In this document: positions 3,284 through 61,885 of the stretch, in pieces
Layout: every line of letters begins with the position of its first letter
Position numbering within the stretch: the stretch's first letter is position 1
NCBI RefSeq assembly: GCF_000004825.1
Contig: NW_008805086.1
Coordinates: forward strand, 965,410 to 1,029,409
Direction: 5' to 3'
Source of the DNA: Heterostelium pallidum
Lineage: Eukaryota
Length of the DNA stretch: 64,000 bases
Program-made: the position numbers and the translations under genes
The notes under the pieces: generated by a model
The model's database searches: none
What the model saw: only the letters and a program-made list of their open reading frames with translations
Told to the model about the DNA's origin: nothing

Positions 3284-3451
3284 TAAGAGAATTGAATTTA
3301 ATACTAATGTAACATTTAAAAGTGATTGACAATTATCGATATCATATCTTGAGATCAACAATTCTTTAGATTCTCAAAGATTTTCTTTTGGGATTCAATA
3401 AAGTCAGGGTTACTCATTAATGACATAATATTTGATATTTCATTGTCTTCA
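3284..3451. repeat. Degenerate direct copy of the last ~30 codons plus 3' flank of the PARP-like gene (partner copy at 3505-3671)
   Basis: Eye alignment of ..aaagtgattgacaat..atcgatat..ttctttaga.tt...a.attttcttttgggattcaa.aaagtcagggttactcattaa.gacataatatttgatatttcattgtcttcat in both copies. They are about 220 bp apart with scattered mismatches. Confidence 0.8.
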
Positions 3452-3576
3452 TAATATTATTATTATTATTATTATTTATTTATGTACATAAAAGAGATCT
3501 ATGAAAGAGAATTAAGATTGTTAATGTAATATGAAAAAGTGATTGACAATGATTCCCAAGTATCGATATGATACAC

Positions 3577-4749
3577 TTATTTCTTTAGACTTTCCAATAT
3601 TTTCTTTTGGGATTCAACAAAGTCAGGGTTACTCATTAAAGACATAATATTTGATATTTCATTGTCTTCATTATTATCATTGTTATTATTATTACTATTA
3701 TTACTATTATTATCGATACCAAAATGTCTAAATTTGTTGGTTCCATTGGCATTTCTGGTTGTTGGAATGGGATAGGATAGAGGAATTGCTGTAGTTGGTG
3801 GTGGTGGTGGGTGTTGACGGTTGGTTCGTGGTGGTGGTGGTGGTGGCGGCGGTGGTTGACGGTAAATACTTGTGGTTGATAGTGTTGATTTTATCGATGT
3901 ATTGGATGTTGGCATACCACGGGTATAAGCGTCTGAATATGTAATCAGATACTCGGGATAGGCACGACCGTTCTCATAGATGGTAAATATATCACCGCCT
4001 TTATAACTGTCGTAGACACCACGACTTGTGAGATCAGCCATCTGATCAAAGGGCACCGATAAAGCCATTGCACAACTACCTAGTAGCACACGACAATAGA
4101 ACATCTGGTAGATATTGCCTTGGCTCAACGTGTGTCGGTATCCATTGCTGTAGCTAGCGTTCATCGCAAAGTAGTGTGCCTTTCCGAAGCTGCCATAATT
4201 GGAAAACGACAGGTCGAAACCGACAGGATGATCATAGATCTCCGAGGGTCTGTGCGTTCTGGTTCCATGGTAGAGTCGTGATTCAACGATGACGGAACTA
4301 CTTGCATTGTAACGCTTCATCAACTCTAGACACTTGCTATGATAGCTACGCCAGAGTGTTTTGCTCTGAACACGCTCCACCTTTGTAATGTTGAAACTTG
4401 GAAGTGTTTCTCGAAAGTGTTGATGTATTTCATAGAATTCGGTGCCGGATCTGTCGATTTCAACCAATCTGACCTGCTCCTTTTGTGGTAACAGCCAGTA
4501 GAATGGAAAATCATGTTTCTCTGCTATTGCTTCCAGACCAAGTGTATCTACTACTTCGGTTTTGATTGTACTTTTTATAGATTTTCGTTGTGTGTCATCT
4601 TTCAATTGTTCAAAACTACTTTCTTTTTCTCTTATTCTCTTTTGACGTGATGATGATGATGAAGATGTTGCTGAATCTGTTGCTCTTGTAGTCGTCGTCG
4701 TTGTAGTTGAATCATTTTCAGATTTTTTTGGGAGTAAAATGAAATCCAT
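3577..4749 (-). CDS. PARP-family mono-ADP-ribosyltransferase (PARP7/11/12-like catalytic domain, H-Y-I triad) with a proline-rich C-terminal tail
   Basis: Single 390-aa ORF. Catalytic-domain hallmarks are FYEIHQHF..ITKVERVQSKTLWRSYHSK, the histidine in LYHGT, the tyrosine in GKAHYFA, and DIFTIYENGRAYPEYLITY. In that last motif the position of the PARP1 catalytic Glu is Ile, as in mono-ART PARPs. A run of 9 Pro and a poly-N tail follow. Confidence 0.8.
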   Translation of the reverse strand: MDFILLPKKSENDSTTTTTTTRATDSATSSSSSSRQKRIREKESSFEQLKDDTQRKSIKSTIKTEVVDTLGLEAIAEKHDFPFYWLLPQKEQVRLVEIDRSGTEFYEIHQHFRETLPSFNITKVERVQSKTLWRSYHSKCLELMKRYNASSSVIVESRLYHGTRTHRPSEIYDHPVGFDLSFSNYGSFGKAHYFAMNASYSNGYRHTLSQGNIYQMFYCRVLLGSCAMALSVPFDQMADLTSRGVYDSYKGGDIFTIYENGRAYPEYLITYSDAYTRGMPTSNTSIKSTLSTTSIYRQPPPPPPPPPRTNRQHPPPPPTTAIPLSYPIPTTRNANGTNKFRHFGIDNNSNNSNNNNNDNNEDNEISNIMSLMSNPDFVESQKKILESLKK

Positions 4750-8154: not shown

Positions 8155-9771
8155 TTATAAAAATGATTTTAAAACATTTCCAATCATATTTTGAATTGGT
8201 CTTATTACCAGGTTTGATAATGGGTTCTTAATGAGTAGAGTGGAGAAGAGCTGTCCATAGTCCGCTATGGCTGTGAGGCATGGAATTCTTATAATAAGTT
8301 CTCGTAGAGATGGCCAATTGGATAAGAAGTCACCGGCATTGTTCATGTTTTCGTCTTCTTCTGCGGTATTCAACTGGTCCTTGATCTTTTCATATGGAAT
8401 ACAGAATCGATCGATCTCCATTGCATCGTCAGTTTCCTCAACTTGTTCCATGATAGGATCTTCATGTGATGTCATTTCTACATCATTTGATGCTGCTGCT
8501 TCTGACTGTGGTGGAGATTGTTGTTGCAGTGTTTGTGAAAGTTGTTGTAAATAGTTGATTTGTTGTTGTTGTCTATAATCTTGAATCTGCGAGTTGTAAT
8601 TGTTATCGATTTCAAAGATTACGACAATTTCTTTTGCTGGTTTTGATTGTTCCGTTGATTGCACTGTAGTGTTGTGTTGAATAGGAGTATGGAGTGGTGT
8701 TTGGGTTGGAGATTGGATTGGTGATTGAGATGGAGTTTGGATTGGTGTTTGGGATTGTGTTGGAATTGGTGTTTGGATTGGTGTTTGGGATGGTGTTTGA
8801 ATTGGTGTTTGGGATGGGGATTGGATTGGTGTTTGACTATTTACATGAGTTGATTTGTGATGTTTTTGATTGTCCATTGATTCTTGATTATTATCTTCTT
8901 CTCTTATTCTTTTTTTTGTTGAATTGTTATTATTATTATTGTTATTGTTATTTATTTGGTTATTTATTTGGTTATTTATTTTTTTATGTTGACTATTATT
9001 GTCACAATCATCCTCTCTTTCTTTTCTTTTACCACTATAAATCAAGCTCGATCCGATATCATGATCATCGTCACCAAAATCAATCGATTCGATATCAAAC
9101 AATGGTTTACTTTGGGTATTTTGTGTATTATTATGTGTATTATTATGTGTATTATGTGTATTATTCTGTGTATTATTCTGTGTATTAATTTGTTTATTAT
9201 TTTGTGTACTATTTTGTATATTATCTTGTGTATTATTCTGTGTATTATTTTGTGAATTAGTCTGTTTTGTTTTCTTTGTTCCTCTGTAGCCTCTTCTTCT
9301 TTTGTTTGTACCAGAGAGTGTTTGGTCTGGTGTAGTTGTGGTAGCTGGTTTTGGTGAAGATTGAGATGAAGTAGAAGCAGCTTGTGAATTTGAAAGTGTT
9401 GGTTGAGATGGTGACTGAGGTGACGAAACAATTTGTTGTGTTCTTGAAGGTGTGGGTTGTGGAGCTAATTTAGATGTTACATTGGCATAAGTATTTATAA
9501 TATCGCTCATCTCTTTTGCCTTTTCCTTATTTGATTCGTCTACATTCTTGGCAATCTCATTCATTTCTATCATGGTGTTTAGATAGGTGGTATGTGCCTT
9601 ATCTCGAGCTGGTTTCCAAGACTGTGCCTCCTCCTTGGTGGTCGATTCGTAGCCTTTGGAAATTGTAGTCTCTTTACCAACTTGACTTTTCATAGCAGAA
9701 TATTTGTAGATAGTCATTTTGTCAACTTCATTTCCACCCATGAATTTAATGTAATGTTTATTGGCACGCAT
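8155..9771 (-). CDS. Low-complexity (NTQ / QTPIQ repeat) protein; either a separate gene or the last exon of the 9831-11487 gene
   Basis: The ORF is 538 aa. Its ATG at 9771 is directly preceded by AG, and a GTAAGT donor sits at 9839. That defines a 68-nt phase-0 intron (9772-9839) that would fuse ..FQFLDNRS to MRANKHYIKFMGG... I recognised no domain. The N- and C-terminal parts are non-repetitive. Confidence 0.5.
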   Translation of the reverse strand: MRANKHYIKFMGGNEVDKMTIYKYSAMKSQVGKETTISKGYESTTKEEAQSWKPARDKAHTTYLNTMIEMNEIAKNVDESNKEKAKEMSDIINTYANVTSKLAPQPTPSRTQQIVSSPQSPSQPTLSNSQAASTSSQSSPKPATTTTPDQTLSGTNKRRRGYRGTKKTKQTNSQNNTQNNTQDNIQNSTQNNKQINTQNNTQNNTHNTHNNTHNNTQNTQSKPLFDIESIDFGDDDHDIGSSLIYSGKRKEREDDCDNNSQHKKINNQINNQINNNNNNNNNNSTKKRIREEDNNQESMDNQKHHKSTHVNSQTPIQSPSQTPIQTPSQTPIQTPIPTQSQTPIQTPSQSPIQSPTQTPLHTPIQHNTTVQSTEQSKPAKEIVVIFEIDNNYNSQIQDYRQQQQINYLQQLSQTLQQQSPPQSEAAASNDVEMTSHEDPIMEQVEETDDAMEIDRFCIPYEKIKDQLNTAEEDENMNNAGDFLSNWPSLRELIIRIPCLTAIADYGQLFSTLLIKNPLSNLVIRPIQNMIGNVLKSFL

Positions 9772-27649: not shown

Positions 27650-30456
27650 CAGTAGTAATAATAATAGTTCGACGACGACAACAACAACAACAACAAAAAC
27701 TAATTTAAACAGTAGAATACCACCGAATAAAGGTAATACAGGTGGAGGTATACCAAACTTTATTGAGTTGGAGCAATGGTATCTGGAAAACTATCATCTT
27801 CCATTGATACAAAATAGAATCAATGAATTCATAAGAAACAATCCAATCGATGAAAATGACCAAGATAACACTGACTATTATCAAAAGTTAAATACTCTAT
27901 CAATGCCAAGAGTATCACCGATTATCATCATCGAGAATTTTGAATCTTGGGACAGTCAAATCATACAAGATCTTTTATATTTATTAAGGTAACTATATAT
28001 CAAGTTATTAATATTATCATTTTAATTGCAGTAATACTTATTATAATATATCCATATATCTAAATAGTACATATAGACAAAGTATACCATTTGTAGTTAT
28101 TTTCTCAATCTCAACAACAGAAGATACTATATATAATACATTATCCTATGAAACAATATCGATGTTAAATATTAAATCATTCTCACTATCTCCTCAGACT
28201 CAGCTGTTTGAGAGATTCGTTTACGATATCTTTGTAAAGGATCAGCTGATATCATTTGGCCCACAAGTCTACAAGTTCATCTATGAAAGCTTTAAGAGCA
28301 ATCATCTCTCTGTTATCTACACAACAAGACAGCTGCTCTATTCAATTCACGAACATTTCTACTATAATACCTTTAGTTTCCTTTGTTACGACGATGTAAT
28401 CAACCTGAAAAAGCAAAAGACTACCAATGCTCAGATTGGATTCAAAGCATCCGCTAGAAGTGGTACCTATCGTTACAAGTATGGTGATGATGAAGATGAT
28501 GAAGCTGAATCATATCACTTTGATTACAACACCAAGAAAAACAACAATAATAATAATAATAATAATAATAATAAGAGTAGTAATAGTAGTAACCAAAGAC
28601 GTAGTAAAAATAGAGATGAAAGTGAAGAGGATGAGTTGGATGAGCAAAAGCAAATCGATGATGACAACAACGATAACAACACCGAGAAGGAAGAAGAAGA
28701 AGAAAAAGTGGAAGTAGAAGATGAAGAGGAGGATGAAGACGATGCAGATAATAATGATATCGTATTTAGGTTGACCAATTGTCGTTCAGAGTATACCGGC
28801 TCTGATAGTACTGACAACCAGACATCTTATACCGACGATAACTCTGACTCTGACACTCTAGAATACCAAAGACTGATGACTTACAACAGTAACTATTACA
28901 ATCAAAACAATCAGCAATATCGTAGCATTGTTCCACTGTCTCAGCTGAGTAACACCACTCAACAACAACAGCAGCAGCAACTCTACCGTCAATCTGCACT
29001 TCCACTGAAGGATCTCAGTAAGGATCACATCACTCGAATTCTGCAGACAAAGTCGGTGGTCGATGACATGAAGACATGGGATCCTGCACTTAAAAAGAAG
29101 TGTTTGAACCGACCGAATAGCATCCGCTATGTCATTCCAGTGTGGATCGAGAATCTCTTTGCAATTCGATATATTAAACAACATTGTATCGAGTGTTACT
29201 ATATCATACTGCAACTGATGTATCCAAATATTCTCTACAGTGATATACTCTATCATTTCGCAAACAAAGATTACAATACTCTTACACAACTAAAAAGATT
29301 CTTAAAGTTTGTATAATAAGAGATTAACTGAAAAAACTAATTAATTGGTTAATTCTAACATTTATAAATATTGTAGTAAAGAGAAACCAGATAATTTAAT
29401 TATGATTGTTTCAAAGTGGATTGGTATATTGACAAAGTTAATCGATCACACATACTATCCAGAGAGATATCAGATGTTTGCAACTACTATACTTGGTAAA
29501 GAACCAAACTTTAATAACTTTGTTAGAACTCAACGTGCAGTCTCTAAATACATCGAAGATTGTAAATTGGTTATACAATATCTAAAGGAATCGATGAATG
29601 AAGCAATGAGTAGCAAAACAGCAACCACTAAAGAAGATCATAACGACACCACCGATCAATCTAAAACATCTACAAATCAAAAGAAGAGAGTGTAAGTTTA
29701 ACTATCTATCTATTTAAAAAGGATTAATGATCAATCATTCTAACATATTATTATTATTATTATTATTATTATTTTTAAAAAGTGATAGATCAAAACGTTC
29801 TAACCAAAAAAAGAAAGAAGCAACTCACCATGAAATGGCATTAATGAAATTGAATGAATTATTGAATATTTTCATTTAGTAAGTTGTTATTTATTAATAT
29901 AGTTGCAACCTTTTTGAAACAGATAACTAATTAATTGATTTTATTTATTTTTAAAGCGATTATATTGATAGAGATTTAAGTTCGTTGCCGATGAGTGAGA
30001 TATATCATAGTGATCGTATTGATAAGCTGAGCAAAGTATTCAATGTAAATCATACACAAGACATCAAAAAGCAGATAATGAACTCCTCAGAGATATTAGG
30101 TTGCACCAAACCAAGATGTTGTGGAAACAATGATCCAAAGAAAGCTGGTACCACACCTAAAAATACACCAAAGACAGAGGATATCACGATTATGTATTCA
30201 CTCTACACAGAGTTTGGTAGATTTATCAATCTTTATGATTGGCTAACTTCGTTCTGTATGGTTTTCAACAACACCGGTGAACATACTCCAGAACTACAGT
30301 ATTTATCAAAACAATAATTATAATTGTAACTATACTAACTTGATTAATACCATGTATAGAGCTAGATTTTCATCGTCATTAGATATTTTACAATATCTTG
30401 GACTTATACAACGAACAAATAAGAGAACTGACCATGTTATTAAAATCCACTATTGA
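26189..30456 (+). CDS. orc3: Origin recognition complex subunit 3 (ORC3); 8 modelled exons with an unresolved 5' end
   Basis: Exons: 26189-26413, 26502-26723, 26805-27988, 28068-29306, 29377-29691, 29783-29878, 29957-30298, 30360-30456. All are phase-consistent; the 29306/29377 junction uses a weaker GTTTGT donor. ORC3-like blocks are LPAVVLYTG, PIIIIENFESWDSQIIQDLLYLL, IPFVVIFSISTTEDTIYNTL, and the C-terminal ELQ|ARFSSSLDILQYLGLIQRTNKRTDHVIKIHY. The first modelled exon has no ATG. A tentative 19-codon exon at 26034-26090 (ATG..TTA|GTGAAA) would supply one. Confidence 0.85.
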
Positions 30457-30462
30457 ACATAT

Positions 30463-30669
30463 ATAGGATTTGACTTTATCAACATTAACATAATCAAAAC
30501 AGTACACAATGACTCATCAGATATAACAGGAGTTTAACTATACTTTTAGTATAAAATAACTCTTAATGATGACACATTTGTTAATATCATCCCAATGATT
30601 AAACATGGTCTGGAAAGGTAGTTAACTTGAAGGACTTGTCTGATTAAATATCTCATCATAAAATAAATA
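30463..30669. repeat. Left arm of a 207-bp inverted repeat, starting 7 nt after the ORC3 stop codon
   Basis: The reverse complement of 31885-32091 matches this arm with only 3 mismatches by my eye alignment. Confidence 0.95.
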
Positions 30670-31288
30670 CATGTTCTATTTTTATTTATGTTAAACACTC
30701 CATTGAGGTAAATCTTATTTATTAAAAAAATAATTCAATTAGATTCATTGATTCTGTTAACATATCCACAAATCTAGTAATTAAAACATAAAAAAAAAAT
30801 TATCTAAACATGTGTTTTAAAATATAAAAACAACGTAAAAATAAAGATATTAATCACAACTAATATATTTTCAAAAACTTAGTAATAATAACAAATAAAA
30901 TAAGATGTATTAAATAAAACAACCACATAATATAATATTTATTTGTAAAAATTCAATCATTTTTTTGTACAGAAATCATATAAAGATTATTAATAATAAA
31001 TATAACCTTGAATATGATTATAATTTATGTAGTCTAATATATATTTTTAAAACAATGGTAATAATAATAGACTGTAAAAGCAGTCTCATTAGTTTACGTA
31101 TTATTGTACAACCTCTTAAAGAATGAGTCATGCCTATTACCTTTCTATTCTCAGTTTGTAAATATTAGTTCAACTGTTGTTTATATGTGTAGAATCTAAC
31201 TTTATAGAATGTATTTAAACAAGTTATTCTCATTACTTTTAAATCATTCAAAAAATAACTTTATTTAAACAATAGTTTTCTAAACAAA

Positions 31289-31753
31289 ATGAAGATTGCA
31301 TTATTTTCTCTATTATTGGTTGCTTTGACATGTTTGTCAGCAGTAAACTCAACATTTGTTGTTGGTACATGTGATTCAAGCAAGTGTGGTGCCGGTCAAG
31401 TTTGTATCTGTGAAGGTGGTGTCAGTCACTGTGTCTTGTTGGATCAATGCCATGATGTTGCCATCGTCCAAACCATTGAACACAGTTGGGTTGAGAATGG
31501 TCAATCATTCACTTTATACCGTGTCCACGTCTTCAACTATGGTCCAAGAACCTTGAAGAACATTGCCATCCAAACTGATTGCACTTTGGACCCACGTGAT
31601 CAAAACTCTGTCTGGAACATCGAATATCACAATGGATTCTTCTCACTTCCATCATATGGTCAAGGTATTGCCACTGGTAAAGAGTTTGTCTTTGGATACA
31701 TTGATCGTGGTATGCGTTCTCCAAATCTCTTTATCCGTGCTCTCCAATATTAA
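31289..31753 (+). CDS. Small secreted Cys-rich protein with a CBM49-like carbohydrate-binding domain
   Basis: The 154-aa intronless ORF has a signal peptide (MKIALFSLLLVALTCLSAVNS) and a Cys-rich stretch. This is followed by SWVENGQSFTLYRVHVFNYGPRTLKNIAIQTD..VWNIE..GFFSLPSY..IATGKEFVFGYI, which resembles the dictyostelid CBM49 pattern. Confidence 0.7.
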   Translation: MKIALFSLLLVALTCLSAVNSTFVVGTCDSSKCGAGQVCICEGGVSHCVLLDQCHDVAIVQTIEHSWVENGQSFTLYRVHVFNYGPRTLKNIAIQTDCTLDPRDQNSVWNIEYHNGFFSLPSYGQGIATGKEFVFGYIDRGMRSPNLFIRALQY

Positions 31754-31799
31754 ATTTAAATAAATCAATATTTATTTTTTTTCCTTGAATTAAATTGTA

Positions 31800-31864
31800 A
31801 ATTTAATTATGATTGTTTCAAAGTGGATTGGTATATTGACAAAGTTAATCGATCACATACTATC
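31800..31864 (+). repeat. Ectopic direct copy of an internal ORC3 exon fragment (source 29393-29459)
   Basis: The string aatttaattatgattgtttcaaagtggattggtatattgacaaagttaatcgatcaca..catactatc is present at both sites. The only difference is a 2-bp indel (cacaca versus caca). Confidence 0.9.
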
Positions 31865-31884
31865 AATTTGTTTTTTTTATCTTT

Positions 31885-32091
31885 TATTTATTTTATGATG
31901 AGATATTTAATCAGACAAGTCCTTCAAGTTAACTACCTTTCCAGACCATGTTTAATCATTGGGATGATATTAACAAATGTGTCATCATTAAGAGTTATTT
32001 TATACTAAAAGTATAGTTAAACTCCTGTTATATCTGATGAGTCATTGTGCACTGTTTTGATTATGTTATTGTTGATAAAGTCAAATCTTAT
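31885..32091. repeat. Right arm of the 207-bp inverted repeat (partner 30463-30669)
   Basis: See the left arm. The arms enclose a 1,215-bp spacer that carries the CBM49-like gene and the ORC3 exon fragment. Confidence 0.95.
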
Positions 32092-32378
32092 GGGAATAGA
32101 TTGGACGAATACTGAAAAAAAAACTTTTTTTGTAGCGAAAAAAAAATAACGGAAAAAAACGAACGAAACAGAAGTTCGTCTATCCTGTTATAAATAAAAT
32201 TAGAAAATAACTTAAATAATAATAAAAGAATCTAATAATAAATTTAATTGTCTGATTTCATAGTTAATCATTGTGGTTGATTCATTTACATTTTTTCTAA
32301 GCAGTATCTTTCCATTAGTTTTTTTTTAATATTTTTTGATTTGATTTAACTTATAATCAGCAAAGTTAAATATTTAAA

Positions 32379-33682
32379 ATGGAATCAAATAATAATAACA
32401 ACAATAGTAGAGATATTTTATTTAAAGAAAGAAAAGATAAATGTCAATTTGCTAGATGGTATAGCACATTTAGACGATTGACATTTGAGAGTGTTATCAT
32501 TGAATTGCCAAAGATCGTAGTGGATTACTTGAATTCCGATCACTTCTCAACAGAGACAACATCGTTCCCAAAGTACAAGTTGGACGATTATGAAGATGAC
32601 ATTGGTGACGATGATGAACAATGGTCCACTCCTGTAGGAAAGAGTAAAGAATCATCAATGTTTAATAAGAAATATTATCAATCTTATGATTCAGATGATG
32701 ATACTGATGATTCAGATGATGATAAAGTAGAAGATAATAATAACAATAATAGAACCAATGAAGTAAAGATAGATCCACAACAACTAAAGAGTTTTACAGA
32801 CAAAATAGATGAAGCAATCAAGAAACTAGGTGGTGAATGTGTTCCAAAGTTGAATTGGTCATCACCGAAAGACGCTACTTTCATGAACATCCACGCCAGT
32901 CTAAGATGTTCTAGCAGTTCAGATATACTATTACTCCTAAAGAGTTCTGATTTTATTAATCATGATCTCGCTCAATTGTAAGTAGGGTAGAACCATCCAC
33001 AACAACTGACAGCATTATGGAAATTACAAACTAACAATCACAACATTTTAGTGATAATGATATTAAAGATTTACAACCAGATGATATTACACCACTAACA
33101 TTGGTACTGAGAAGATGGGCAAACGTAAATATTGCATTGGAATTTAGATGTTTCATTAAAGACAATCAATTGATTGCAATTAGTCAACGTGATACCTCTG
33201 CATTCTTTGATTTCCTGCCAGCAAAGAAAGAATTAATACAATCAAAGATCAAATCATTCGCAGAACAACATATTATTAACAAATTCAATGATGTTTCATG
33301 TAAGTTGATCAAATAACAATCAATTAGATAGCAATTTAATTAACTTTATTATTATTATTACGTTTGTTTAGATTGTTTCGATGTATGTTTCTTGGATACC
33401 AATTTAAATACGGTTACATTGATGGATTTCAATCCGATTCATCCTTCGACAGACAGTTTACTTTTTGATTGGTACGAGTTGTTCCCAGAGGAATTGGAAC
33501 ATCAAGAGATTGATGAATCTGTGAAACCATTGGAACATTTCGAATTTAGAATAGTGGAGAGCAACGAAGGTATAAGACCTAATCTATCAATGTCAAGTCG
33601 ATTACCAAGTGATCTTGTCAACATGCAATCAACTTCTGAAATCAATGAAATGTTATCGAAATTTAAAGATCACAAAATATAA
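32379..33682 (+). CDS. cdc123: Cell division cycle protein 123 (CDC123/D123 family)
   Basis: Three exons (32379-32977, 33052-33299, 33372-33682) with phases 2 and 1. Motifs are CQFARWY, PKLNWSSPKDATFM, LVLRRWANVNIALEFRCFIKDNQLIAISQRD and CFDVCFLD..VTLMDFNP..TDSLLFDW. Confidence 0.9.
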
Positions 33683-41456: not shown

Positions 41457-42875
41457 ATGGAAGATGTATACAATATTGAGAAGAGAAAACAAATATTTGA
41501 AGTTTTATCAAATAATTTAGAAATAAGATATTTAAAGTATATATGGGTGGATCTATCAAATTTTATTCATGTAAAAGTTATTAGAACCAAGTATTTATTG
41601 GAGCACCAATGCAAATATTTTTCGTTTGGTACCAACTTTCTGTTTTTGAGATGCTTTGACAATCTTTCCAATGTTATAATTCCACCAGAGGACAAAGAAA
41701 CTTACTTTGTTCCAGATTGGAATACATTCCATGTGAATTCTTATCAAAAGGGAATTGCAAGTGTGTTTGGTTCGATCTATAGAATGAAGAAAGTAGTTTT
41801 AGGAAATGGAAATTCGTTCATACAGTGTGAACCATATGAACACTGTCCAAGAAATATTTTAAAAAAAGCAGAGAATACACTGTCGGAAATTCATATTGAT
41901 GGTGAAACTGGTATCAGCTTGAAAGGTTCATTTGAAGAAGAGTTCTATTTATTACCATTGGATACACCAATACCTGAAGAGGCTAATTCCGAATTAATAC
42001 CTGGATACAGTTTATACCATGTGGATGATCACATAGAGATCCTAATTGATATGGCCAAACACTTGGAGGATCAAGGTGTGCCGAATGAACAGATTCTGCA
42101 TGAGGGTGCACCAAACCAATTTGAAATAACAGTGCCTTACACATCGATCATGGAAGCATGTGATCGTCATATCATTGTGAGAAGTACAGTTCATGCTATT
42201 GCCAAGAAACATGGATATCAAGCCACTTTTATTCCTAAACCATTTAAAAACGACCTTGGAACTGGTTGCCATGTTCATCTTTCTCTGTGGAACAAAGACA
42301 AGAATTTAGTACCAAATCTAACTCATTCAACTAATTTATCAAACATTGCAAGACGTGCGATCAGTGGTATATTGCATCATGCTAGAGGTCTAACTGCTAT
42401 TTTCAATGCGTCTGTAAACTCATATCAACGTTTGAAGCCTATGACCTGGTCTGGAGGTGCCATTTGCTGGGGTGTCAATAATAAGGAATCGATGATTCGT
42501 GTTCCACACAGTGCATACACATTCAGTAACTTTGAATTGAAATCATTGGATCATAGTGCCAATGTGTATGTGGCAATGGCAGCCACTATATATGCAATGG
42601 TTGATGGAATGATTAGTGATAGTATAAAGATGCTTCCTCCAATTACCAAATACCCGTGCCAATATACTGACAGTGAAAGAGATAACCTAGGAATAAGACA
42701 GTTTCCTAAAACTCTTGGAGAAGCAATCAAAGAACTTGGCTCAGATACCTTTTTGATCAAAATGATGGGTTCCGAATTTATAGAGACCTTTTGTGCTATC
42801 AGACAATTCGAACAAGATTTTCTTAAAGGCAAGAGTGATTATGAAATTATTAAACTCTATTACAAACTGTATTAA
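41457..42875 (+). CDS. Type-I glutamine synthetase-like ATP-dependent amide ligase, tandem copy 1
   Basis: An intronless 472-aa ORF. Motifs are GSFEEEFYLL, EGAPNQFEITVPY, ATFIPKPF..GTGCHVHLSLW, NSYQRLKP and WG..NKESMIRVP. Confidence 0.9.
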   Translation: MEDVYNIEKRKQIFEVLSNNLEIRYLKYIWVDLSNFIHVKVIRTKYLLEHQCKYFSFGTNFLFLRCFDNLSNVIIPPEDKETYFVPDWNTFHVNSYQKGIASVFGSIYRMKKVVLGNGNSFIQCEPYEHCPRNILKKAENTLSEIHIDGETGISLKGSFEEEFYLLPLDTPIPEEANSELIPGYSLYHVDDHIEILIDMAKHLEDQGVPNEQILHEGAPNQFEITVPYTSIMEACDRHIIVRSTVHAIAKKHGYQATFIPKPFKNDLGTGCHVHLSLWNKDKNLVPNLTHSTNLSNIARRAISGILHHARGLTAIFNASVNSYQRLKPMTWSGGAICWGVNNKESMIRVPHSAYTFSNFELKSLDHSANVYVAMAATIYAMVDGMISDSIKMLPPITKYPCQYTDSERDNLGIRQFPKTLGEAIKELGSDTFLIKMMGSEFIETFCAIRQFEQDFLKGKSDYEIIKLYYKLY

Positions 42876-43302: not shown

Positions 43303-44724
43303 ATGGAAGAATTGAATAATGAAAAAAGAAAACAAATATTTGAATATTTATCAATACACACAGAAATTAGATATCTAAAATATATTTGGATTGATCTTTC
43401 CAATGTTATACACTCGAGAATCATCAGAACAAAATATTTGCTAGAAGAACGATGCCAGCACTTCCCTATTCTCATTACCTTCCTTTATTGGCGATGCTTC
43501 GACGGAAGAATAAGTCCAGCGGTTGATTATAAACTCGAAGAATCTGAAGCTTACTTTTTGCCAGATTGGGGAACATTCCAATTGGTTTCATATCAAGCAG
43601 AGACTGCACAGGTTTTTGGGTACATTTATCAAATTAAGAGAGTGGCTCAGCCTGATGGTGCTTTCAAGACTCACTATGATGCCGTGGATTGTTGTCCTAG
43701 AACCATGCTGAAGAATGCAGAGAAAATACTTTCGGAGATCCATATCGATGGTGCAACTGGTATCAGCTTGAAAGGTTCCTTCGAAGAAGAATTCTATCTA
43801 CTTCCTTTTGGTACGTCATTGCCTGAAGATTCTAGTTATGAATACAGACCATGCTTTAGCCTTTATCATACAGATGAATACTTTGAGATTCTAACTGACA
43901 TTGAGAAACACTTGGAGGCTCAGGGTGTGCCAAATGAACAGATTATGACCGAAGGTGGACCAAACCAATTTGAAATAACAGTGCCTTACACATCGATCAT
44001 GGAAGCATGTGATCGTCATATTATCATCAGAAGTACAGTTCATGCAATTTCCAAGAAACATGGATATCAAGCCACTTTTATTCCCAAACCTTACAAGAGT
44101 TACCCTGGAACTGGTTGTCATGTTCACCTTTCTCTGTGGAACAGAACCAATAATTTAGTTCCAAATCTCAGTCATCCAAATGGTCTGTCAAACATTGCAA
44201 GACGTGCGATCAGTGGTATATTGCATCATGCCAGTGGTCTGGCTGCTATTTTCAATCCAAATGTAAACTCATATCAACGTTTGAAACCATTGACTATTTC
44301 AGGTAATTTTATATGCTGGGGTATCGGTAATAAGGAAGCGATGATTCGAGTTCCACCATGTTCTTATACATTCAGTAACTTTGAATTGAAATCAATGGAT
44401 CATAGTGCCAACCCGTATTTGGCATTAGCTGCAACTATCTATGCAATGGTCGATGGAATGATTAGTGATAATATTAGGATACTTCCCAACATTCCAACAT
44501 TTCCAACACTCTACACCGAAATAGAAAAAGAGGAACTGGGCATTAGAGAAAATCCTAGATCTCTTGACGAAGCAATCAAAGAACTTAGATCAGATACCTT
44601 TTTGATCAACATGATGGGTTCTGAATTTATCAAGAACTTTTGTGCTATTAGACAGTTCGAACAAGATTTTCTTAGTGGCAAAACTAATCATGAAACCGCC
44701 AAACTCTATTACAAATTGTATTAA
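43303..44724 (+). CDS. Type-I glutamine synthetase-like ligase, tandem copy 2
   Basis: Intronless and collinear with copy 1, with the same motif set. I took the start at the first ATG (MEELNNEKRKQIF); the ORF track begins at an upstream GTG. Confidence 0.9.
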   Translation: MEELNNEKRKQIFEYLSIHTEIRYLKYIWIDLSNVIHSRIIRTKYLLEERCQHFPILITFLYWRCFDGRISPAVDYKLEESEAYFLPDWGTFQLVSYQAETAQVFGYIYQIKRVAQPDGAFKTHYDAVDCCPRTMLKNAEKILSEIHIDGATGISLKGSFEEEFYLLPFGTSLPEDSSYEYRPCFSLYHTDEYFEILTDIEKHLEAQGVPNEQIMTEGGPNQFEITVPYTSIMEACDRHIIIRSTVHAISKKHGYQATFIPKPYKSYPGTGCHVHLSLWNRTNNLVPNLSHPNGLSNIARRAISGILHHASGLAAIFNPNVNSYQRLKPLTISGNFICWGIGNKEAMIRVPPCSYTFSNFELKSMDHSANPYLALAATIYAMVDGMISDNIRILPNIPTFPTLYTEIEKEELGIRENPRSLDEAIKELRSDTFLINMMGSEFIKNFCAIRQFEQDFLSGKTNHETAKLYYKLY

Positions 44725-51508: not shown

Positions 51509-58655
<7,147 letters not shown>

Positions 58656-58711: not shown

Positions 58712-61700
58712 TCATTTCTTTTTATTAAACTTTTTCTTTTCGTTGTTATTCTTTGAATTATTCTTTCCAATGCTGAAATTTTGAGATGAATTTGTCGTCG
58801 ACTTTGAAGATTTACTCTTTGAGTTAAAAATCATGTCAATATCATCCATATCTGCATCTTGATTTGATTGATCATTCATATCATCGCTACCAATCTTTTC
58901 TTTTTTAACTTTAACTGGTACCTTATCTTCATCTTCATCTTCATTTTCATCTTTGTTAGAATGTTGATAAATATTCTTTTGTTTCTTTAGTGGTTGTTGT
59001 TGTTGTTGTTTGGTGCTGGTAGTACTGGCACCATCATCCTCTAAGATATCTTGGAAGAGTTTTCTCTTTTTATCGGTGGTTGCTTGCGAACTTGCCCATT
59101 GATCCTTCTTTTTCTTAAAGACGTTGATGTGACAGATCAAGAGAACATAACGACCAGCGGGTGTGCTGAACAGACGTGGCTCTTCTTTGGCCAACTCCTC
59201 ACAGATCATCTCCCTAAGACTGAGATCGGATAACTTGTAGATTCTCTCCATTACAAAGGATCCGCATTTATCAACACCTATATCTGGGAATCTACCCTTT
59301 AACTTTTTGATGAACTGGTGCTTTCTCTCTACTGTGATACCGCAATCCAAGAATGCATCCAATACTTTGCTACCGACTGGATCGACTGCCATCACCACCA
59401 ACTGATCGCTTTCCAATTTCATAAAACTATCGATAATATATTGAGTGTAATCAACATTAAAGAATAACAATTTTTGTAAGATAATCGCACCACACATTGA
59501 ATACTAAAATGATTATTTAAAAAATATTAATATTAATGTTTTGCCAGTCACCTGGTAAATAATAGAAAAGAAGATAATACCTTTTTGTTCTCTGTAATAT
59601 TATGTTCAAGATATAATAACTTGTTTACAATATCTTTGATATCAGTTTGAACGTTTGGTAATACTGCTGCATTCAATATCTTTATCAACTCTCTTTGTTG
59701 TGCATTCATTCTTAAACAACATTCAACCAATTTTTGAACGATTTGACCTCTTCCCATATCTAGATATCATCAGCAGCAGTAGTAATAGATTCAATTGTAT
59801 TAATAGACAGAATCAAATACAACATATCTAAATATAAATACCTATTAGTTTTTTAAAATTGTCTTTAAGCTCTTGGATCAATGTTGCCAATTGTGCATTA
59901 TCTCTAACGTTTTCAATCAATGATTTAACAACATGATTCGATACTAAATCCTCAGAGAACTTTACCAACTGCAATCTCATCAATGAGAATATTCTTGAAT
60001 AACTTGTGTTTGGACATGACTATTTGATAACAATAAGTTAGTTAAACTATAATTATGGAATATTTATAAATATTCGTACCTTTAAAATAGATTCAAAAAT
60101 AAGAGAACCAAACTTATTATAGATAACCTCTAAGAATCTATCTTTTTCAGTTTGACCTTCATTCTGTGGTGTTAAAATGGTATCGAGAATACTGTTGAAT
60201 AGTTCGGTGTTACTGCAAGATAGCTCAATGATTGTCTTTATAGTCTCTCTTGTCTTATTGTTGAAAATCAATAAAGGTAGTTTCTCTTTCAACGTTTCAT
60301 GAATAGTAGTCAAAGCAGCTTGGATCTTCTCTTTATATGCAGTAGGTGCTTCATATGATTGAACTATTATCTCTCTTTGTTTTTCTTCTTCTGATTGCTA
60401 TAAAATTGTGTGATTTGTTTATAACTATATAAATAAAACTTCTATTGGTATCACGATATTGTTGATTACCTACATTATGTTTACTTCCTTTCGATGTTGA
60501 AAACTTCTCGGTAACGGTACCACTCATAATATTGAATAACTTTGATAATACAAATGGTGCACTTCTATCTTCAATTACACTACTGATATTTTCAACAAGA
60601 ATCTAAAAAAAAAGAAAAAAAAAAAAATATTTATTAGATAAAATAAACATAAATATTATATATTATTAATACTTACATCAACAAGTTTAAATAAGATCTC
60701 TTGGAATTTGATAAGATCAGATTTCTTGGCTTTGGCAATGATTACAGGGATTTGAACAATGATAGACTCCAACACTCTGGAACCATTGACGTGAGTGGCA
60801 ACTACCATAAAGTCGTATTGTAGCATCGAAGCAATCATGATAATCTGTGATGGCAATGCACGCTTCAAAATACCTTCTAGGATGAAACTACAGATACGAT
60901 CTGTAGCAACCAATGTTGCTTTGCTCTCGATCTCTTTCAGTGCATTCTCAATGATGATATTATGATCTAACTCGTCGGTATCGTCATCGTAATCCTTTGG
61001 TTTATCGGTGATAACCTCATTGATCTTCTCTAAATAGTTTCTGGTTTGTGTATCGACCTCTGTTACTTTGAAACTCTTCTTTTCTGTTGTAGTATCGGTA
61101 TTATCTTCATTGTCATCCTGTTGTTGTTTTTCATTGTAGAATGGGTTATCACCGCCGCCGCCTCTTTTGTTTCCACCTTCTCTTTTGGTTTGTGATTGCT
61201 GCTGTCCACCAGAGTAGAATTGATTATCGGCTGCATCCTTTCTTCTATTGTTTCCGCTGTTGTTGTTGTTTCCATCTACGCCTGGACAATCTCTTGAAAT
61301 ATGACCTGGTTGATTACATTTGAAACAATTACGATCGTTTCCACCAGCTCTACTTGAGATAGAGGACGATGACTCTGGACAATCTCTCGAAATATGACCG
61401 GTTTGATTACATTTGTAACAACTACGATCGTTTCCACCAGCTCTACTTGAGATAGAGGACGATGCCTCTGGACAATCTCTCGAAATATGGCCAGTTTGAT
61501 TACATTTGAAACAAGCACGATCATGACCAGTACTACCACCCTTTTGATTTCCTCTATTACCTCCATTATATTGGTTATTATTGTTATTATTATTTTTATA
61601 ACCACCTGACGATGCCTCAGGGCAATCTCTAGATATATGACCTGTCTGATTACATTTGAAACAAGCACGATCATTTCCTGCTCCTCCACCCGAACTACGA

Positions 61701-61885
61701 TCGTTTCCACCAGCTCTACTTGAGGAAGATGACGATGCCTCAGGGCAATCTCTCGAAATATGACCTGTCTGATTACATTTGAAACAAGCACGATCATGAC
61801 CTGTTCCTCCACCTTTTTGATTACCTCTAGGTCCTCTATTACCTTTCTTATCTATTCTAAAAAAATCATCATTATTATCTGACAT
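58712..61885 (-). CDS. Nop9-like Pumilio-repeat RNA-binding protein with an N-terminal array of five CCHC zinc knuckles
   Basis: Six exons: 60677-61885, 60474-60602, 60080-60397, 59842-60019, 59581-59759, 58712-59503. All junctions are GT..AG and phase-consistent. The knuckle is C[FY]KCNQ[TP]GHISRDC, five times. Pumilio/Nop9-like helices include DRICSFILEGILK, THVNGSRVLESII, NHVVKSLIEN, VDPVGSKVLDAFL, DKCGSFVMERIY and a C-terminal NVFKKKKDQW. Confidence 0.65.
61283..61795 (-). repeat. Tandem coding repeats of about 100-130 bp encoding the CCHC-knuckle units
   Basis: Near-identical stretches such as ggacaatctctcgaaatatgacc.gt.tgattacatttg.aaca..cacgatc recur five times on the plus-strand read. 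Confidence 0.9.

What the first reader, a model, noticed from the sequence alone, without database searches (positions are those of the whole stretch)
30463..32091. Near-perfect 207-bp inverted repeat enclosing a complete secreted-protein gene, abutting the ORC3 stop codon
The arms are 30463-30669 and 31885-32091. They differ at only 3 positions by my alignment and are separated by 1,215 bp. The spacer holds a promoter-like AT-rich region, the 154-codon CBM49-like gene and a pasted ORC3 exon fragment.

The left arm starts 7 nt after the ORC3 TGA, so it is presumably the ORC3 3' UTR. The right arm lies in what would be the 3' UTR of the CBM49-like gene, which is on the same strand. That mRNA would therefore carry about 207 nt that is perfectly antisense to the ORC3 3' UTR, and any ORC3 read-through transcript could fold into a long hairpin.

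Possible interpretations are a foldback/TIR-bounded gene-carrying element, a recent inverted duplication by template switching, or a built-in dsRNA/siRNA source coupling a replication gene to a secreted-protein gene. The very high arm identity implies a recent origin or ongoing homogenisation.
Basis: partly seen in the sequence, partly recalled or inferred. Interest (0 to 1): 0.6.

Follow-up and report, generated by a model that had tools for sequence, protein, structure and literature searches.

The report
Young inverted copy of ORC3 tail
In the social amoeba Heterostelium album, a 292-base patch stitched from two pieces of the neighbouring ORC3 gene sits just downstream of a small secreted-protein gene, which creates a real but probably accidental 207-base inverted repeat around that gene.

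Summary
Arms 30463-30669 and 31885-32091 are 207 nt long, differ at 3 positions and lie 1,215 nt apart. This is the only long, high-identity inverted repeat in the 64-kb window.

The window comes from Heterostelium album PN500 (formerly Polysphondylium pallidum). The enclosed gene is PPL_04545, a CBM49 protein. ORC3 lies upstream and CDC123/D123 downstream.

The right arm is not a free-standing element end. It is the last piece of a 292-nt composite patch (31800-32091):
- a 65-nt direct copy of an ORC3 coding exon
- a 20-nt T-rich filler
- the 207-nt inverted copy of the ORC3 3' flank

Both templates lie within 2.5 kb upstream. No target-site duplication flanks any candidate unit, and there is no transposase. 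The exon copy is bracketed by an exact 5-nt microhomology (AATTT). All three arm mismatches sit in the outermost 42 nt.

The best reading is a single, young, local template-switching or break-repair scar. A gene-carrying transposon is not supported. A cDNA-templated origin is a live rival.

A dsRNA or antisense role is physically possible but unsupported. The CBM49 gene has an AATAAA 5 nt after its stop codon, so its mRNA may end before the arm. Whole-genome copy number, the paralogue locus and RNA data could not be examined. Interest is modest.

The parts
29393..29459 (+). Source segment 1: part of an ORC3 coding exon (encodes ..NLIMIVSKWIGILTKLIDHTYY..).
   Evidence: It lies in ORF 29345-29695, within the ORC3 reading frames. 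It is the coding original of the copy at 31800-31864.
30364..30456 (+). Last ORC3 coding exon, ending in TGA at 30454-30456.
   Evidence: The spliced C-terminus aligns to within 2 residues of the end of the Drosophila ORC3 PDB chains and also matches human ORC3. Pfam ORC_WH_C matches at 1.3e-11.
30463..30669 (+). Left arm. Presumed ORC3 3' UTR and inferred source of the inverted copy. Carries ATTAAA at 30643-30648 and AATAAA at 30662-30667.
   Evidence: ATTAAA was read. GC is 27%, like the ORC3 coding sequence (28%) and unlike the spacer that follows (19%).
30670..31288 (.). AT-rich spacer (19% GC), presumed upstream or promoter region of the CBM49 gene.
   Evidence: There is no similarity to anything else in the window. 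The only Pfam hit among its ORFs is sub-threshold (E = 0.037, 14.5 bits against a cutoff of 27).
31289..31753 (+). CBM49-domain gene PPL_04545: 154 codons, no intron, N-terminal signal-peptide-like segment.
   Evidence: Pfam CBM49 at 2.1e-16. It is 100% identical to H. album PPL_04545, with paralogues PPL_03280 (91%) and PPL_08917 (65%).
31754..31799 (+). Native 3' flank of the CBM49 gene (11% GC), with AATAAA at 31759-31764.
31788..31808 (.). Small perfect palindrome AATTAAATT-gta-AATTTAATT spanning the left junction of the patch.
   Evidence: It is one of only 15 palindromes with a stem of at least 9 nt and a loop of at most 4 nt in the 64 kb. Its right half is the first 9 nt of the exon copy.
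31800..31864 (+). Patch piece 1: direct copy of ORC3 exon 29393-29459, with a CA deletion. Begins with AATTT, and AATTT follows it immediately (31865-31869).
   Evidence: An exact 5-nt junction repeat in that register has P = 0.0043.
31865..31884 (+). 20-nt T-rich filler or residual resident sequence, AATTTGTTTTTTTTATCTTT.
   Evidence: No template was found in the window at up to 2 mismatches. It has 15 T in 20 nt, a composition reached at 2.5% of low-GC positions.
31885..32091 (-). Right arm, also patch piece 2: inverted copy of 30463-30669.
   Evidence: It forms a 27% GC island between flanks of 11% and 22%.
32379..32981 (+). First coding exon of the downstream CDC123/D123 gene, which bounds the locus. 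287 nt separate it from the right arm.
   Evidence: Pfam D123 at 3.7e-37; eIF2-assembly/CDC123 homologues were found.

Best explanation
The inverted repeat is a by-product of one young, local DNA repair or replication accident. It is neither a mobile element nor an evolved device.

A break or a stalled nascent strand arose in the short intergenic stretch just downstream of the CBM49 gene. It was healed by copying two nearby stretches of the upstream ORC3 gene. One is 65 nt of a coding exon, copied in direct orientation. The other is the 207 nt that follow the ORC3 stop codon, copied in inverted orientation. About 20 nt of T-rich sequence lies between them. This is microhomology-mediated template switching of the FoSTeS/MMBIR or polymerase-theta 'templated insertion' kind.

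Because the second template was copied backwards, the patch now forms a 207-nt inverted repeat with its own source, and the CBM49 gene happens to lie between the two.

What is shown: the composite anatomy, the direction exon to copy, the locality of the templates, the missing target-site duplication, and the 5-nt junction microhomology.

What is inferred: that the left arm is the source, that both pieces arrived in a single event, and the enzymology.

Expected consequences, none tested: read-through RNA would fold into a long hairpin; recombination between the arms could flip the 1.2-kb segment; otherwise the patch is probably neutral.
For: 1. The right arm is physically joined to a second ORC3-derived piece. 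31800-31864 copies exon 29393-29459, and only 20 nt separate it from the arm. The exon piece is coding in ORC3, so the direction of copying is ORC3 to patch.
2. Both templates lie 1.2-2.4 kb upstream of the patch, in mixed orientation. The arm and the exon piece have no other copy in the 64 kb.
3. No flanking duplication exists for any candidate inserted unit: P = 0.15, 0.35, 0.94 and 1.0.
4. An exact 5-nt AATTT starts the exon copy and immediately follows it. Chance in that register is 0.0043.
5. A 9-nt palindrome straddles the same junction, one of 15 in 64 kb.
6. At the outer end of the right arm, source and resident sequence read ATCCTAT against ATCTTAT, an imperfect 7-nt microhomology. 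The outermost 'mismatch' may therefore be the junction itself.
7. All 3 mismatches fall in the first 42 of 207 nt (P = 0.008 one-sided, 0.017 for either end). This is expected if synthesis is error-prone just after a switch, and not expected from uniform decay.
8. Both patch pieces are islands of 26-27% GC within 11-22% GC intergenic DNA, whereas the left arm continues the ORC3 composition.
9. Divergence is 3 substitutions plus one 2-nt slip in 272 nt. That is much less than the 14 amino-acid differences in 154 residues between the CBM49 paralogues. The patch therefore looks younger than the gene duplication and need not have arrived with the gene.
Against: - No pre-insertion allele or related genome could be examined, so the event is reconstructed and not observed.
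- Junction microhomology is exact at only one junction. The junction between the filler and the arm shows none.
- The copied 3' flank runs from 6 nt after the stop codon to a plausible poly(A) site and is followed, in its sense orientation, by an A-rich 20-mer. That fits an RNA or cDNA template better than a random DNA template.
- Polymerase-theta insertions are usually tens of nucleotides long, not 207.
- Whole-genome copy number of the arm is unknown.
- Whether dictyostelids have polymerase theta was not established here. The one paper read (PMC6635534) states only that classical NHEJ is retained in Dictyostelium.
Confidence: 0.55

Rival explanations
1. RNA or cDNA-templated patch. The right arm is a reverse-transcribed copy of the ORC3 mRNA 3' UTR, primed from a T-rich genomic 3' end on the poly(A) tail (target-primed or break-captured cDNA). 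A second ORC3 cDNA fragment was joined to it.
For: - The copied interval is essentially the whole predicted 3' UTR. It starts 6 nt after the stop codon.
- It ends 21 nt after ATTAAA (30643, read) and 2 nt after AATAAA (30662), where GC drops from 27% to 19%.
- The adjoining 20-mer is 15/20 T on the + strand, so it is A-rich in the sense of the copy. Only 2.5% of low-GC positions reach that composition.
- Both pieces lie within exons.
- H. album carries apparently active retrotransposons (DGLT-A, Skipper, NLTR-B; PMC5006619).
Against: - There is no target-site duplication.
- The A-tract is impure (AAAGATAAAAAAAACAAATT) although the copy is about 99% intact.
- The exon piece lies beyond the A-rich tract and in the opposite orientation, which is not the twin-priming arrangement.
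- A free cDNA would have to land by chance within 1.2 kb of its own gene.
- Neither piece spans an intron, so no splice-junction proof is possible.
Confidence: 0.17
2. A foldback or long-TIR DNA transposon (Pack-MULE-like) with 207-bp terminal inverted repeats, carrying the CBM49 gene and a captured ORC3 fragment, inserted 6 nt after the ORC3 stop codon.
For: - The long, near-identical inverted repeats bound a complete gene with its upstream region.
- The gene has a 91% identical paralogue on another contig.
- Removing 30463-32091 would leave a compact 293-nt ORC3-CDC123 intergenic region with an AATAAA at 32193.
- A 'TA' is present at both ends, but TA is its own reverse complement and so carries no information.
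Against: - No target-site duplication of 3 bp or more is present (best local score P = 0.35), although 98.5% arm identity predicts an intact one.
- There is no transposase ORF or Pfam hit in the ORFs of the arms or the spacer.
- No second copy exists in 64 kb, and the metagenome scan gave no match.
- The internal 'captured' fragment comes from the gene immediately next door and abuts the arm. The local-copy model predicts this, whereas under transposition it would be a coincidence.
- The arms differ far less than the paralogues do.
Confidence: 0.1
3. Whatever its origin, the repeat now works as an RNA device. Either CBM49 transcripts that run through the right arm pair with the ORC3 3' UTR, or ORC3 read-through forms a hairpin. 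Either route would feed Dicer and couple the two genes by RNAi.
For: - Predicted duplex energy is -329.5 kcal/mol, and 205 of 207 arm positions pair in the folded read-through RNA.
- Both genes are on the same strand.
- No AATAAA occurs on the + strand between 31759 and 32193, so any read-through would cover the whole arm.
- Dictyostelids have Dicer-like and Argonaute proteins and produce siRNAs (PMC11014262).
- Fused neighbouring transcripts were a specific assembly problem for P. pallidum RNA-seq (PMC5282741).
Against: - An AATAAA lies 5 nt after the CBM49 stop codon, so the normal mRNA probably ends before 31800.
- There is no sign of selection or conservation, and the structure looks like a fresh repair scar.
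- Silencing an essential replication gene would be costly.
- The arm sequence is absent from the miRNA supplements of PMC11014262, although siRNA loci would not be listed there.
- The arms have no structure of their own (z = -0.2 and -0.8).
Confidence: 0.08
4. Assembly or cloning artefact: a chimeric read or clone created the inverted segment.
For: Inverted chimeras are a known artefact class. Only one assembly of this strain is available, and it could not be checked against reads here.
Against: - The copies are not identical: 3 substitutions and a 2-nt deletion.
- The patch lies inside a contig of about 1 Mb, between two intact genes.
- The patch has specific junction microhomology. A chimera would normally be an exact copy at a contig or read end.
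Confidence: 0.05

Closest known systems
Microhomology-mediated template switching (FoSTeS/MMBIR complex rearrangements) and polymerase-theta 'templated insertions' or filler DNA at repaired breaks
   Same: The insert is a patchwork of segments copied from nearby sequence in both orientations. Microhomology is short (5 nt exact at one junction, 6 of 7 nt at another). A small hairpin-forming palindrome sits at one junction. There is no target-site duplication. Substitutions cluster next to a switch point.
   Different: The 207-nt segment is long for polymerase-theta filler and short for typical FoSTeS/MMBIR segments. No microhomology is visible at the junction between the filler and the arm. The enzymes are unknown in this organism. 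The pre-event allele has not been seen.
Pack-MULE, foldback or other long-TIR DNA transposons that carry host gene fragments
   Same: Inverted repeats of about 200 bp bound a host gene plus a fragment of another host gene.
   Different: There is no target-site duplication and no transposase, and there is only one copy in the sequence available. One 'TIR' is the 3' flank of the adjacent gene, and the captured fragment comes from that same gene.
Processed retrocopies and templated-sequence insertions derived from mRNA (LINE-type target-primed reverse transcription, cDNA capture at breaks)
   Same: The copied interval matches a predicted 3' UTR up to a likely poly(A) site and abuts an A-rich tract in the sense of the copy. 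Both pieces are exonic.
   Different: The tail is not pure and there is no target-site duplication. The source gene is only 1.2 kb away. The arrangement of the second piece does not fit twin priming.
Hairpin-RNA (hpRNA) endo-siRNA loci and inverted duplicates as young small-RNA genes (for example the Drosophila inverted duplicates of PMC3176832, and the young long-hairpin miRNAs of amoebae in PMC11014262)
   Same: A long, near-perfect inverted duplicate of part of a gene, which is the proposed starting material for new small-RNA loci.
   Different: The loop is 1.2 kb and contains a whole gene. Co-transcription of the two arms has not been shown. No small RNAs are known from the locus.

Membership tests
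TIR/foldback DNA transposon (incl. Pack-MULE-like) | Terminal inverted repeats | tested here: met
   The arms are 207 nt long and 98.5% identical.
TIR/foldback DNA transposon (incl. Pack-MULE-like) | Target-site duplication flanking the element | tested here: not met
   The 15-nt flanks of 30463-32091 give a best local score of 5, P = 0.35 against random low-GC pairs. Only a self-complementary TA/ATA is present, which carries no information.
TIR/foldback DNA transposon (incl. Pack-MULE-like) | Multiple dispersed copies in the genome | not testable with these tools
   There is no other copy in the 64-kb window and none in the metagenome contigs. The H. album genome itself is in none of the searchable DNA collections.
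TIR/foldback DNA transposon (incl. Pack-MULE-like) | Transposase, or relation to an autonomous element | tested here: not met
   The only sizeable ORF between the arms is the CBM49 gene. The ORFs in the arms and the spacer have no Pfam match above threshold.
Microhomology-mediated template-switch / templated-insertion scar | Inserted segments copied from nearby sequence, in either orientation | tested here: met
   A 65-nt direct copy comes from 2.4 kb upstream and a 207-nt inverted copy from 1.2 kb upstream. They are adjacent in one 292-nt patch.
Microhomology-mediated template-switch / templated-insertion scar | Microhomology at the switch junctions | tested here: inconclusive
   An exact 5-nt AATTT brackets the exon copy (P = 0.0043). 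The outer arm junction reads ATCyTAT, 6 of 7 nt. No microhomology is seen between the filler and the arm. The pre-insertion allele is unavailable.
Microhomology-mediated template-switch / templated-insertion scar | Absence of target-site duplication and of element-encoded functions | tested here: met
Microhomology-mediated template-switch / templated-insertion scar | An empty (pre-insertion) allele in relatives | not testable with these tools
   No related dictyostelid genomic DNA could be retrieved. The predicted empty site is ...TTGTAAATTTGTTTTTTTTATCTTATGGGAATAG....
Processed retrocopy (target-primed reverse transcription) | Poly(A) tail at the 3' end of the copy | tested here: inconclusive
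   In the sense of the copy, an A-rich but impure 20-mer (15/20 A) follows the 3' UTR copy. Its chance frequency is 2.5%.
Processed retrocopy (target-primed reverse transcription) | Target-site duplication | tested here: not met
   P = 0.15-1.0 for all candidate units.
Processed retrocopy (target-primed reverse transcription) | Loss of introns in the copy | not testable with these tools
   Neither copied piece spans an intron.
hpRNA / endo-siRNA locus | Long inverted repeat able to form dsRNA | tested here: met
   205 of 207 arm positions pair in the folded read-through RNA, and the duplex energy is -329.5 kcal/mol.
hpRNA / endo-siRNA locus | Both arms transcribed on one RNA (or as a sense/antisense pair), with about 21-nt small RNAs mapping to them | not testable with these tools
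   No read data are available. An AATAAA 5 nt after the CBM49 stop codon argues against routine transcription of the right arm. The arm sequence is absent from the miRNA supplement of PMC11014262.

The most novel reading that the evidence does not exclude
The accident has created a working module. One possibility is a natural hairpin or antisense source, in which read-through CBM49 or ORC3 transcripts yield siRNAs against the 3' UTR of an essential replication gene. That would be a newborn small-RNA locus caught at its birth. The other possibility is a flip-flop cassette, in which homologous recombination between the 207-bp arms inverts the CBM49 gene with its upstream region and so switches its transcriptional context.
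Probability: 0.07. Interest if true: 0.6.

Novelty: new member of a known kind. Interest (0 to 1): 0.27.

Why it matters
The main value is as a clean, datable natural example of how local template switching creates inverted duplicates in a compact, AT-rich protist genome. It shows how a repeat that looks like a gene-carrying element can be a repair scar.

If transcripts do cross the right arm, the locus would show the first step by which a new hairpin or antisense small-RNA source is born from a gene's own 3' UTR.

It also predicts a testable structural polymorphism: the empty site, and possibly an inverted isomer, in other Heterostelium isolates. No biological function is indicated by the evidence in hand.

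Tried and rejected
- Exact-protein look-ups for PPL_04545 (both the 154-aa ORF and the annotated 170-aa form) and for the paralogue PPL_03280 returned no contig. The paralogue locus and the rest of the genome could therefore not be compared.
- A homologue search with the CDC123/D123 exon was meant to find dictyostelid loci and test ORC3-CDC123 synteny. It returned no usable dictyostelid genomic record; the best hit was an EukProt protein with no contig.
- A metagenome scan with a 23-nt arm probe gave 0 hits.
- Rfam found nothing in the whole window, and no tRNA genes were found. There is thus no tRNA-targeted retroelement context and no known RNA family.
- Each arm region, folded with its flanks, shows no structure beyond shuffles.
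- No template for the 20-nt filler was found in the window: no hit at up to 2 mismatches, and the hits at 3-4 mismatches are only low-complexity T- or A-rich stretches.
- Target-site duplications were tested for four alternative inserted units, and none was significant.
- ORFs inside the arms and the spacer have no significant Pfam match.
- A literature search for the PPL gene identifiers gave no paper. The arm sequence is not in the miRNA supplements of PMC11014262. The H. album genome paper, under my guessed id PMC3205572, is not held.
- I considered and rejected a twin-priming inversion, because the order of the pieces is wrong.
- I considered the idea that the cassette has flipped since its origin. 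That would separate the two ORC3-derived pieces by 1.1 kb, which is less parsimonious.
Full report
**1.

The repeat finder and a direct base-by-base comparison give arms at 30463-30669 and 31885-32091. They are 207 nt long, 1,215 nt apart, and have three mismatches at 30466/32088, 30485/32069 and 30504/32050. BLASTN of 29301-32400 against the whole window scores the pair at E = 7.5e-101 and finds no further copy. A whole-window scan finds no other inverted repeat above 80% complementarity; the rest are low-complexity AT or trinucleotide matches.

All three mismatches lie in the outermost 42 nt, and the inner 165 nt are identical. If mismatches fell uniformly, that pattern would have P = 0.008, or 0.017 allowing either end.

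**2. Where we are**

The enclosed 154-codon ORF (31289-31753) is 100% identical to PPL_04545 of Heterostelium album PN500 (formerly Polysphondylium pallidum). It carries a CBM49 domain at E = 2.1e-16. Its paralogues PPL_03280 (91% identity, 14 differences in 154 residues) and PPL_08917 (65%) lie on other contigs.

The annotated 170-aa model adds a spliced 5' exon that would bury the signal-peptide-like N-terminus. The paralogues are annotated at 154 and 153 aa, and the P. pallidum gene models were automatic Augustus predictions (PMC5282741). The 154-aa form is therefore the more credible one.

Upstream reading frames match ORC3_N and ORC_WH_C. After hand-splicing the last intron, the C-terminus (..ELQARFSSSLDILQYLGLIQRTNKRTDHVIKIHY*) aligns to within two residues of the C-terminal end of the Drosophila ORC3 chains, and it also matches human ORC3. 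The TGA at 30454-30456 is therefore the true stop codon, and the left arm begins at the seventh base after it. Downstream, from 32379, lies CDC123/D123.

**3. The key anatomical point: the right arm is one piece of a composite patch**

Twenty nucleotides to the left of the right arm sits a direct copy (31800-31864) of ORC3 coding sequence 29393-29459. It is 58 nt exact, then a CA unit is lost from CACACA, then 7 nt are exact. That stretch encodes NLIMIVSKWIGILTKLIDH in ORC3, so the ORC3 copy is the original.

The interval 31800-32091 is thus made of three parts:
- 65 nt of an ORC3 exon, in direct orientation
- 20 nt, AATTTGTTTTTTTTATCTTT
- 207 nt of the ORC3 3' flank, inverted

Both templates lie within 2.5 kb upstream. 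The two copied pieces are islands of 26-27% GC in DNA of 11% GC on the left (31754-31799) and 22% GC on the right (32092-32378). The left arm, by contrast, continues the composition of the ORC3 coding sequence (28%) and is followed by 19% GC spacer.

By parsimony the left arm is the source and the right arm the copy. The gene 'enclosed' by the repeat is then simply what lay between template and insertion site.

**4. Junctions**

No flanking direct repeat was found for the whole cassette, the 292-nt patch, the arm plus filler, or the arm alone. P = 0.35, 0.15, 0.94 and 1.0 against random low-GC 15-mer pairs.

The exon copy begins with AATTT and is followed immediately by AATTT. An exact 5-mer match in that register has probability 0.0043 in this sequence. 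This pattern is expected when a nascent end switches template on 5 nt of microhomology.

The same junction lies inside a perfect 9-nt palindrome, AATTAAATT-gta-AATTTAATT at 31788-31808. It is one of only 15 such palindromes in 64 kb.

At the outer end of the right arm, the source reads ATCCTAT where the patch reads ATCTTAT, and ATCTT also precedes the arm at 31879-31883. The outermost 'mismatch' may therefore mark the junction and not a later substitution.

A plausible pre-insertion sequence is ...TTGTAAATTTGTTTTTTTTATCTTATGGGAATAG.... This is a reconstruction, not an observation.

**5. Most likely mechanism**

The best-supported origin is a single local template-switching or break-repair event of the FoSTeS/MMBIR or templated-insertion class. 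I put this at about 0.55. The supporting points are:
- nearby templates
- mixed orientation
- a patchwork of pieces
- microhomology at the junctions
- no target-site duplication
- differences clustered next to a switch point

The patch shows 3 substitutions and one 2-nt slip in 272 nt. It looks much younger than the split between the CBM49 paralogues, so it need not have arrived with the gene. The enzymology is inferred. I could not establish whether this organism has polymerase theta. The one paper I read says only that Dictyostelium retains classical NHEJ (PMC6635534).

**6. Rivals**

(a) *cDNA template.*
- For: the copied flank runs from 6 nt after the stop codon to a position 21 nt past ATTAAA (30643, read) and 2 nt past AATAAA (30662). 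That is a textbook place for a poly(A) site, and GC drops there.
- For: in the sense of the copy, the next 20 nt are 75% A, a composition reached at only 2.5% of low-GC positions.
- For: the genome carries apparently active retroelements (PMC5006619).
- Against: there is no target-site duplication, and the tract is impure in an otherwise roughly 99% intact copy.
- Against: the order of the two pieces is wrong for twin priming, and a free cDNA would have to land 1.2 kb from its own gene.
- I give this rival about 0.17.

(b) *Gene-carrying long-TIR transposon.* The arms and the existence of a recent paralogue fit. Removing the cassette would also leave a tidy 293-nt intergenic region. However, the target-site duplication test fails, no transposase is present, no other copy was seen, and the internal fragment comes from the adjacent gene. 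I give this about 0.10. It is decidable only with the whole genome.

(c) *Functional dsRNA source.* A read-through RNA pairs 205 of 207 arm positions, with a duplex energy of -329.5 kcal/mol. The organism's group has the RNAi machinery (PMC11014262). However, an AATAAA lies 5 nt after the CBM49 stop codon, so the right arm is probably outside the normal mRNA. Nothing indicates selection. I give this about 0.08.

(d) *Assembly artefact.* This is unlikely because the copies differ and the patch lies deep inside a contig of about 1 Mb. I give it about 0.05.

**7. Consequences worth testing**

The 207-bp arms are substrates for homologous recombination that would invert the 1.2-kb spacer, so isolates may carry either orientation. 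From general knowledge of inverted-repeat fragility in yeast, not tested here, a spacer this long should make the repeat fairly stable.

**8. What could not be done**

The H. album genome is in none of the searchable DNA collections. No dictyostelid synteny could be retrieved. No transcript or small-RNA reads are available. The arm is absent from the miRNA supplements of PMC11014262. The gene identifiers appear in no held paper.

**9. Verdict**

The feature is real and well described. It is a new instance of a known kind of structural mutation with no demonstrated function, so interest is modest (0.27). A small residual chance, about 7%, remains that it acts as a newborn hairpin or antisense locus or as an invertible cassette.

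Noticed in passing
window 31126-31288: The public gene model PPL_04545 (170 aa) adds a spliced 5' exon (MSHAYYLSILSF...) in front of the signal-peptide-like MKIALFSLLLVALTCLSAVNS. The paralogues are annotated at 154 and 153 aa and start at that Met, so the extra exon is probably a prediction artefact (PMC5282741).
   Followed up: partly
window 32092-32190: Directly right of the right arm, upstream of CDC123, lies an A-run-rich stretch bracketed by an imperfect inverted pair (ATAGATTGGACGAA ... TTCGTCTATCC). It has no Rfam match, and the fold is not better than shuffles. It may be a promoter element.
   Followed up: partly
window 57591-57787: Seven 21-nt tandem units encode YSPTSPS heptads. This is the C-terminal domain of the RNA polymerase II largest subunit, so the window contains the end of RPB1.
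   Followed up: partly
window 61271-61851 (minus strand): There are five repeated units spaced 93-150 nt apart. Each encodes a CCHC zinc knuckle (C-[FY]-KCNQ-[TP]-GHISRDCP) separated by G/S/N-rich linkers, giving a CNBP-like zinc-knuckle protein.
   Followed up: partly
window 41844-42143 and 43693-43992: A 300-nt direct repeat at 78% identity lies 1.85 kb apart, probably tandem paralogous genes. I did not examine it.
   Followed up: no
window 8667-8859 and 9093-9291: Two long arrays of 12-nt tandem repeats (G/T-rich TTGGxxTGGTGT-type and TATTxTGTGTAT-type) sit next to each other. They are probably a repetitive coding or low-complexity region. I did not examine them.
   Followed up: no
window 3362-3455 and 3581-3674: A 94-nt direct repeat at 93% identity lies 219 nt apart. 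It is another young local duplication in the window, this one in direct orientation. I did not examine it further.
   Followed up: no
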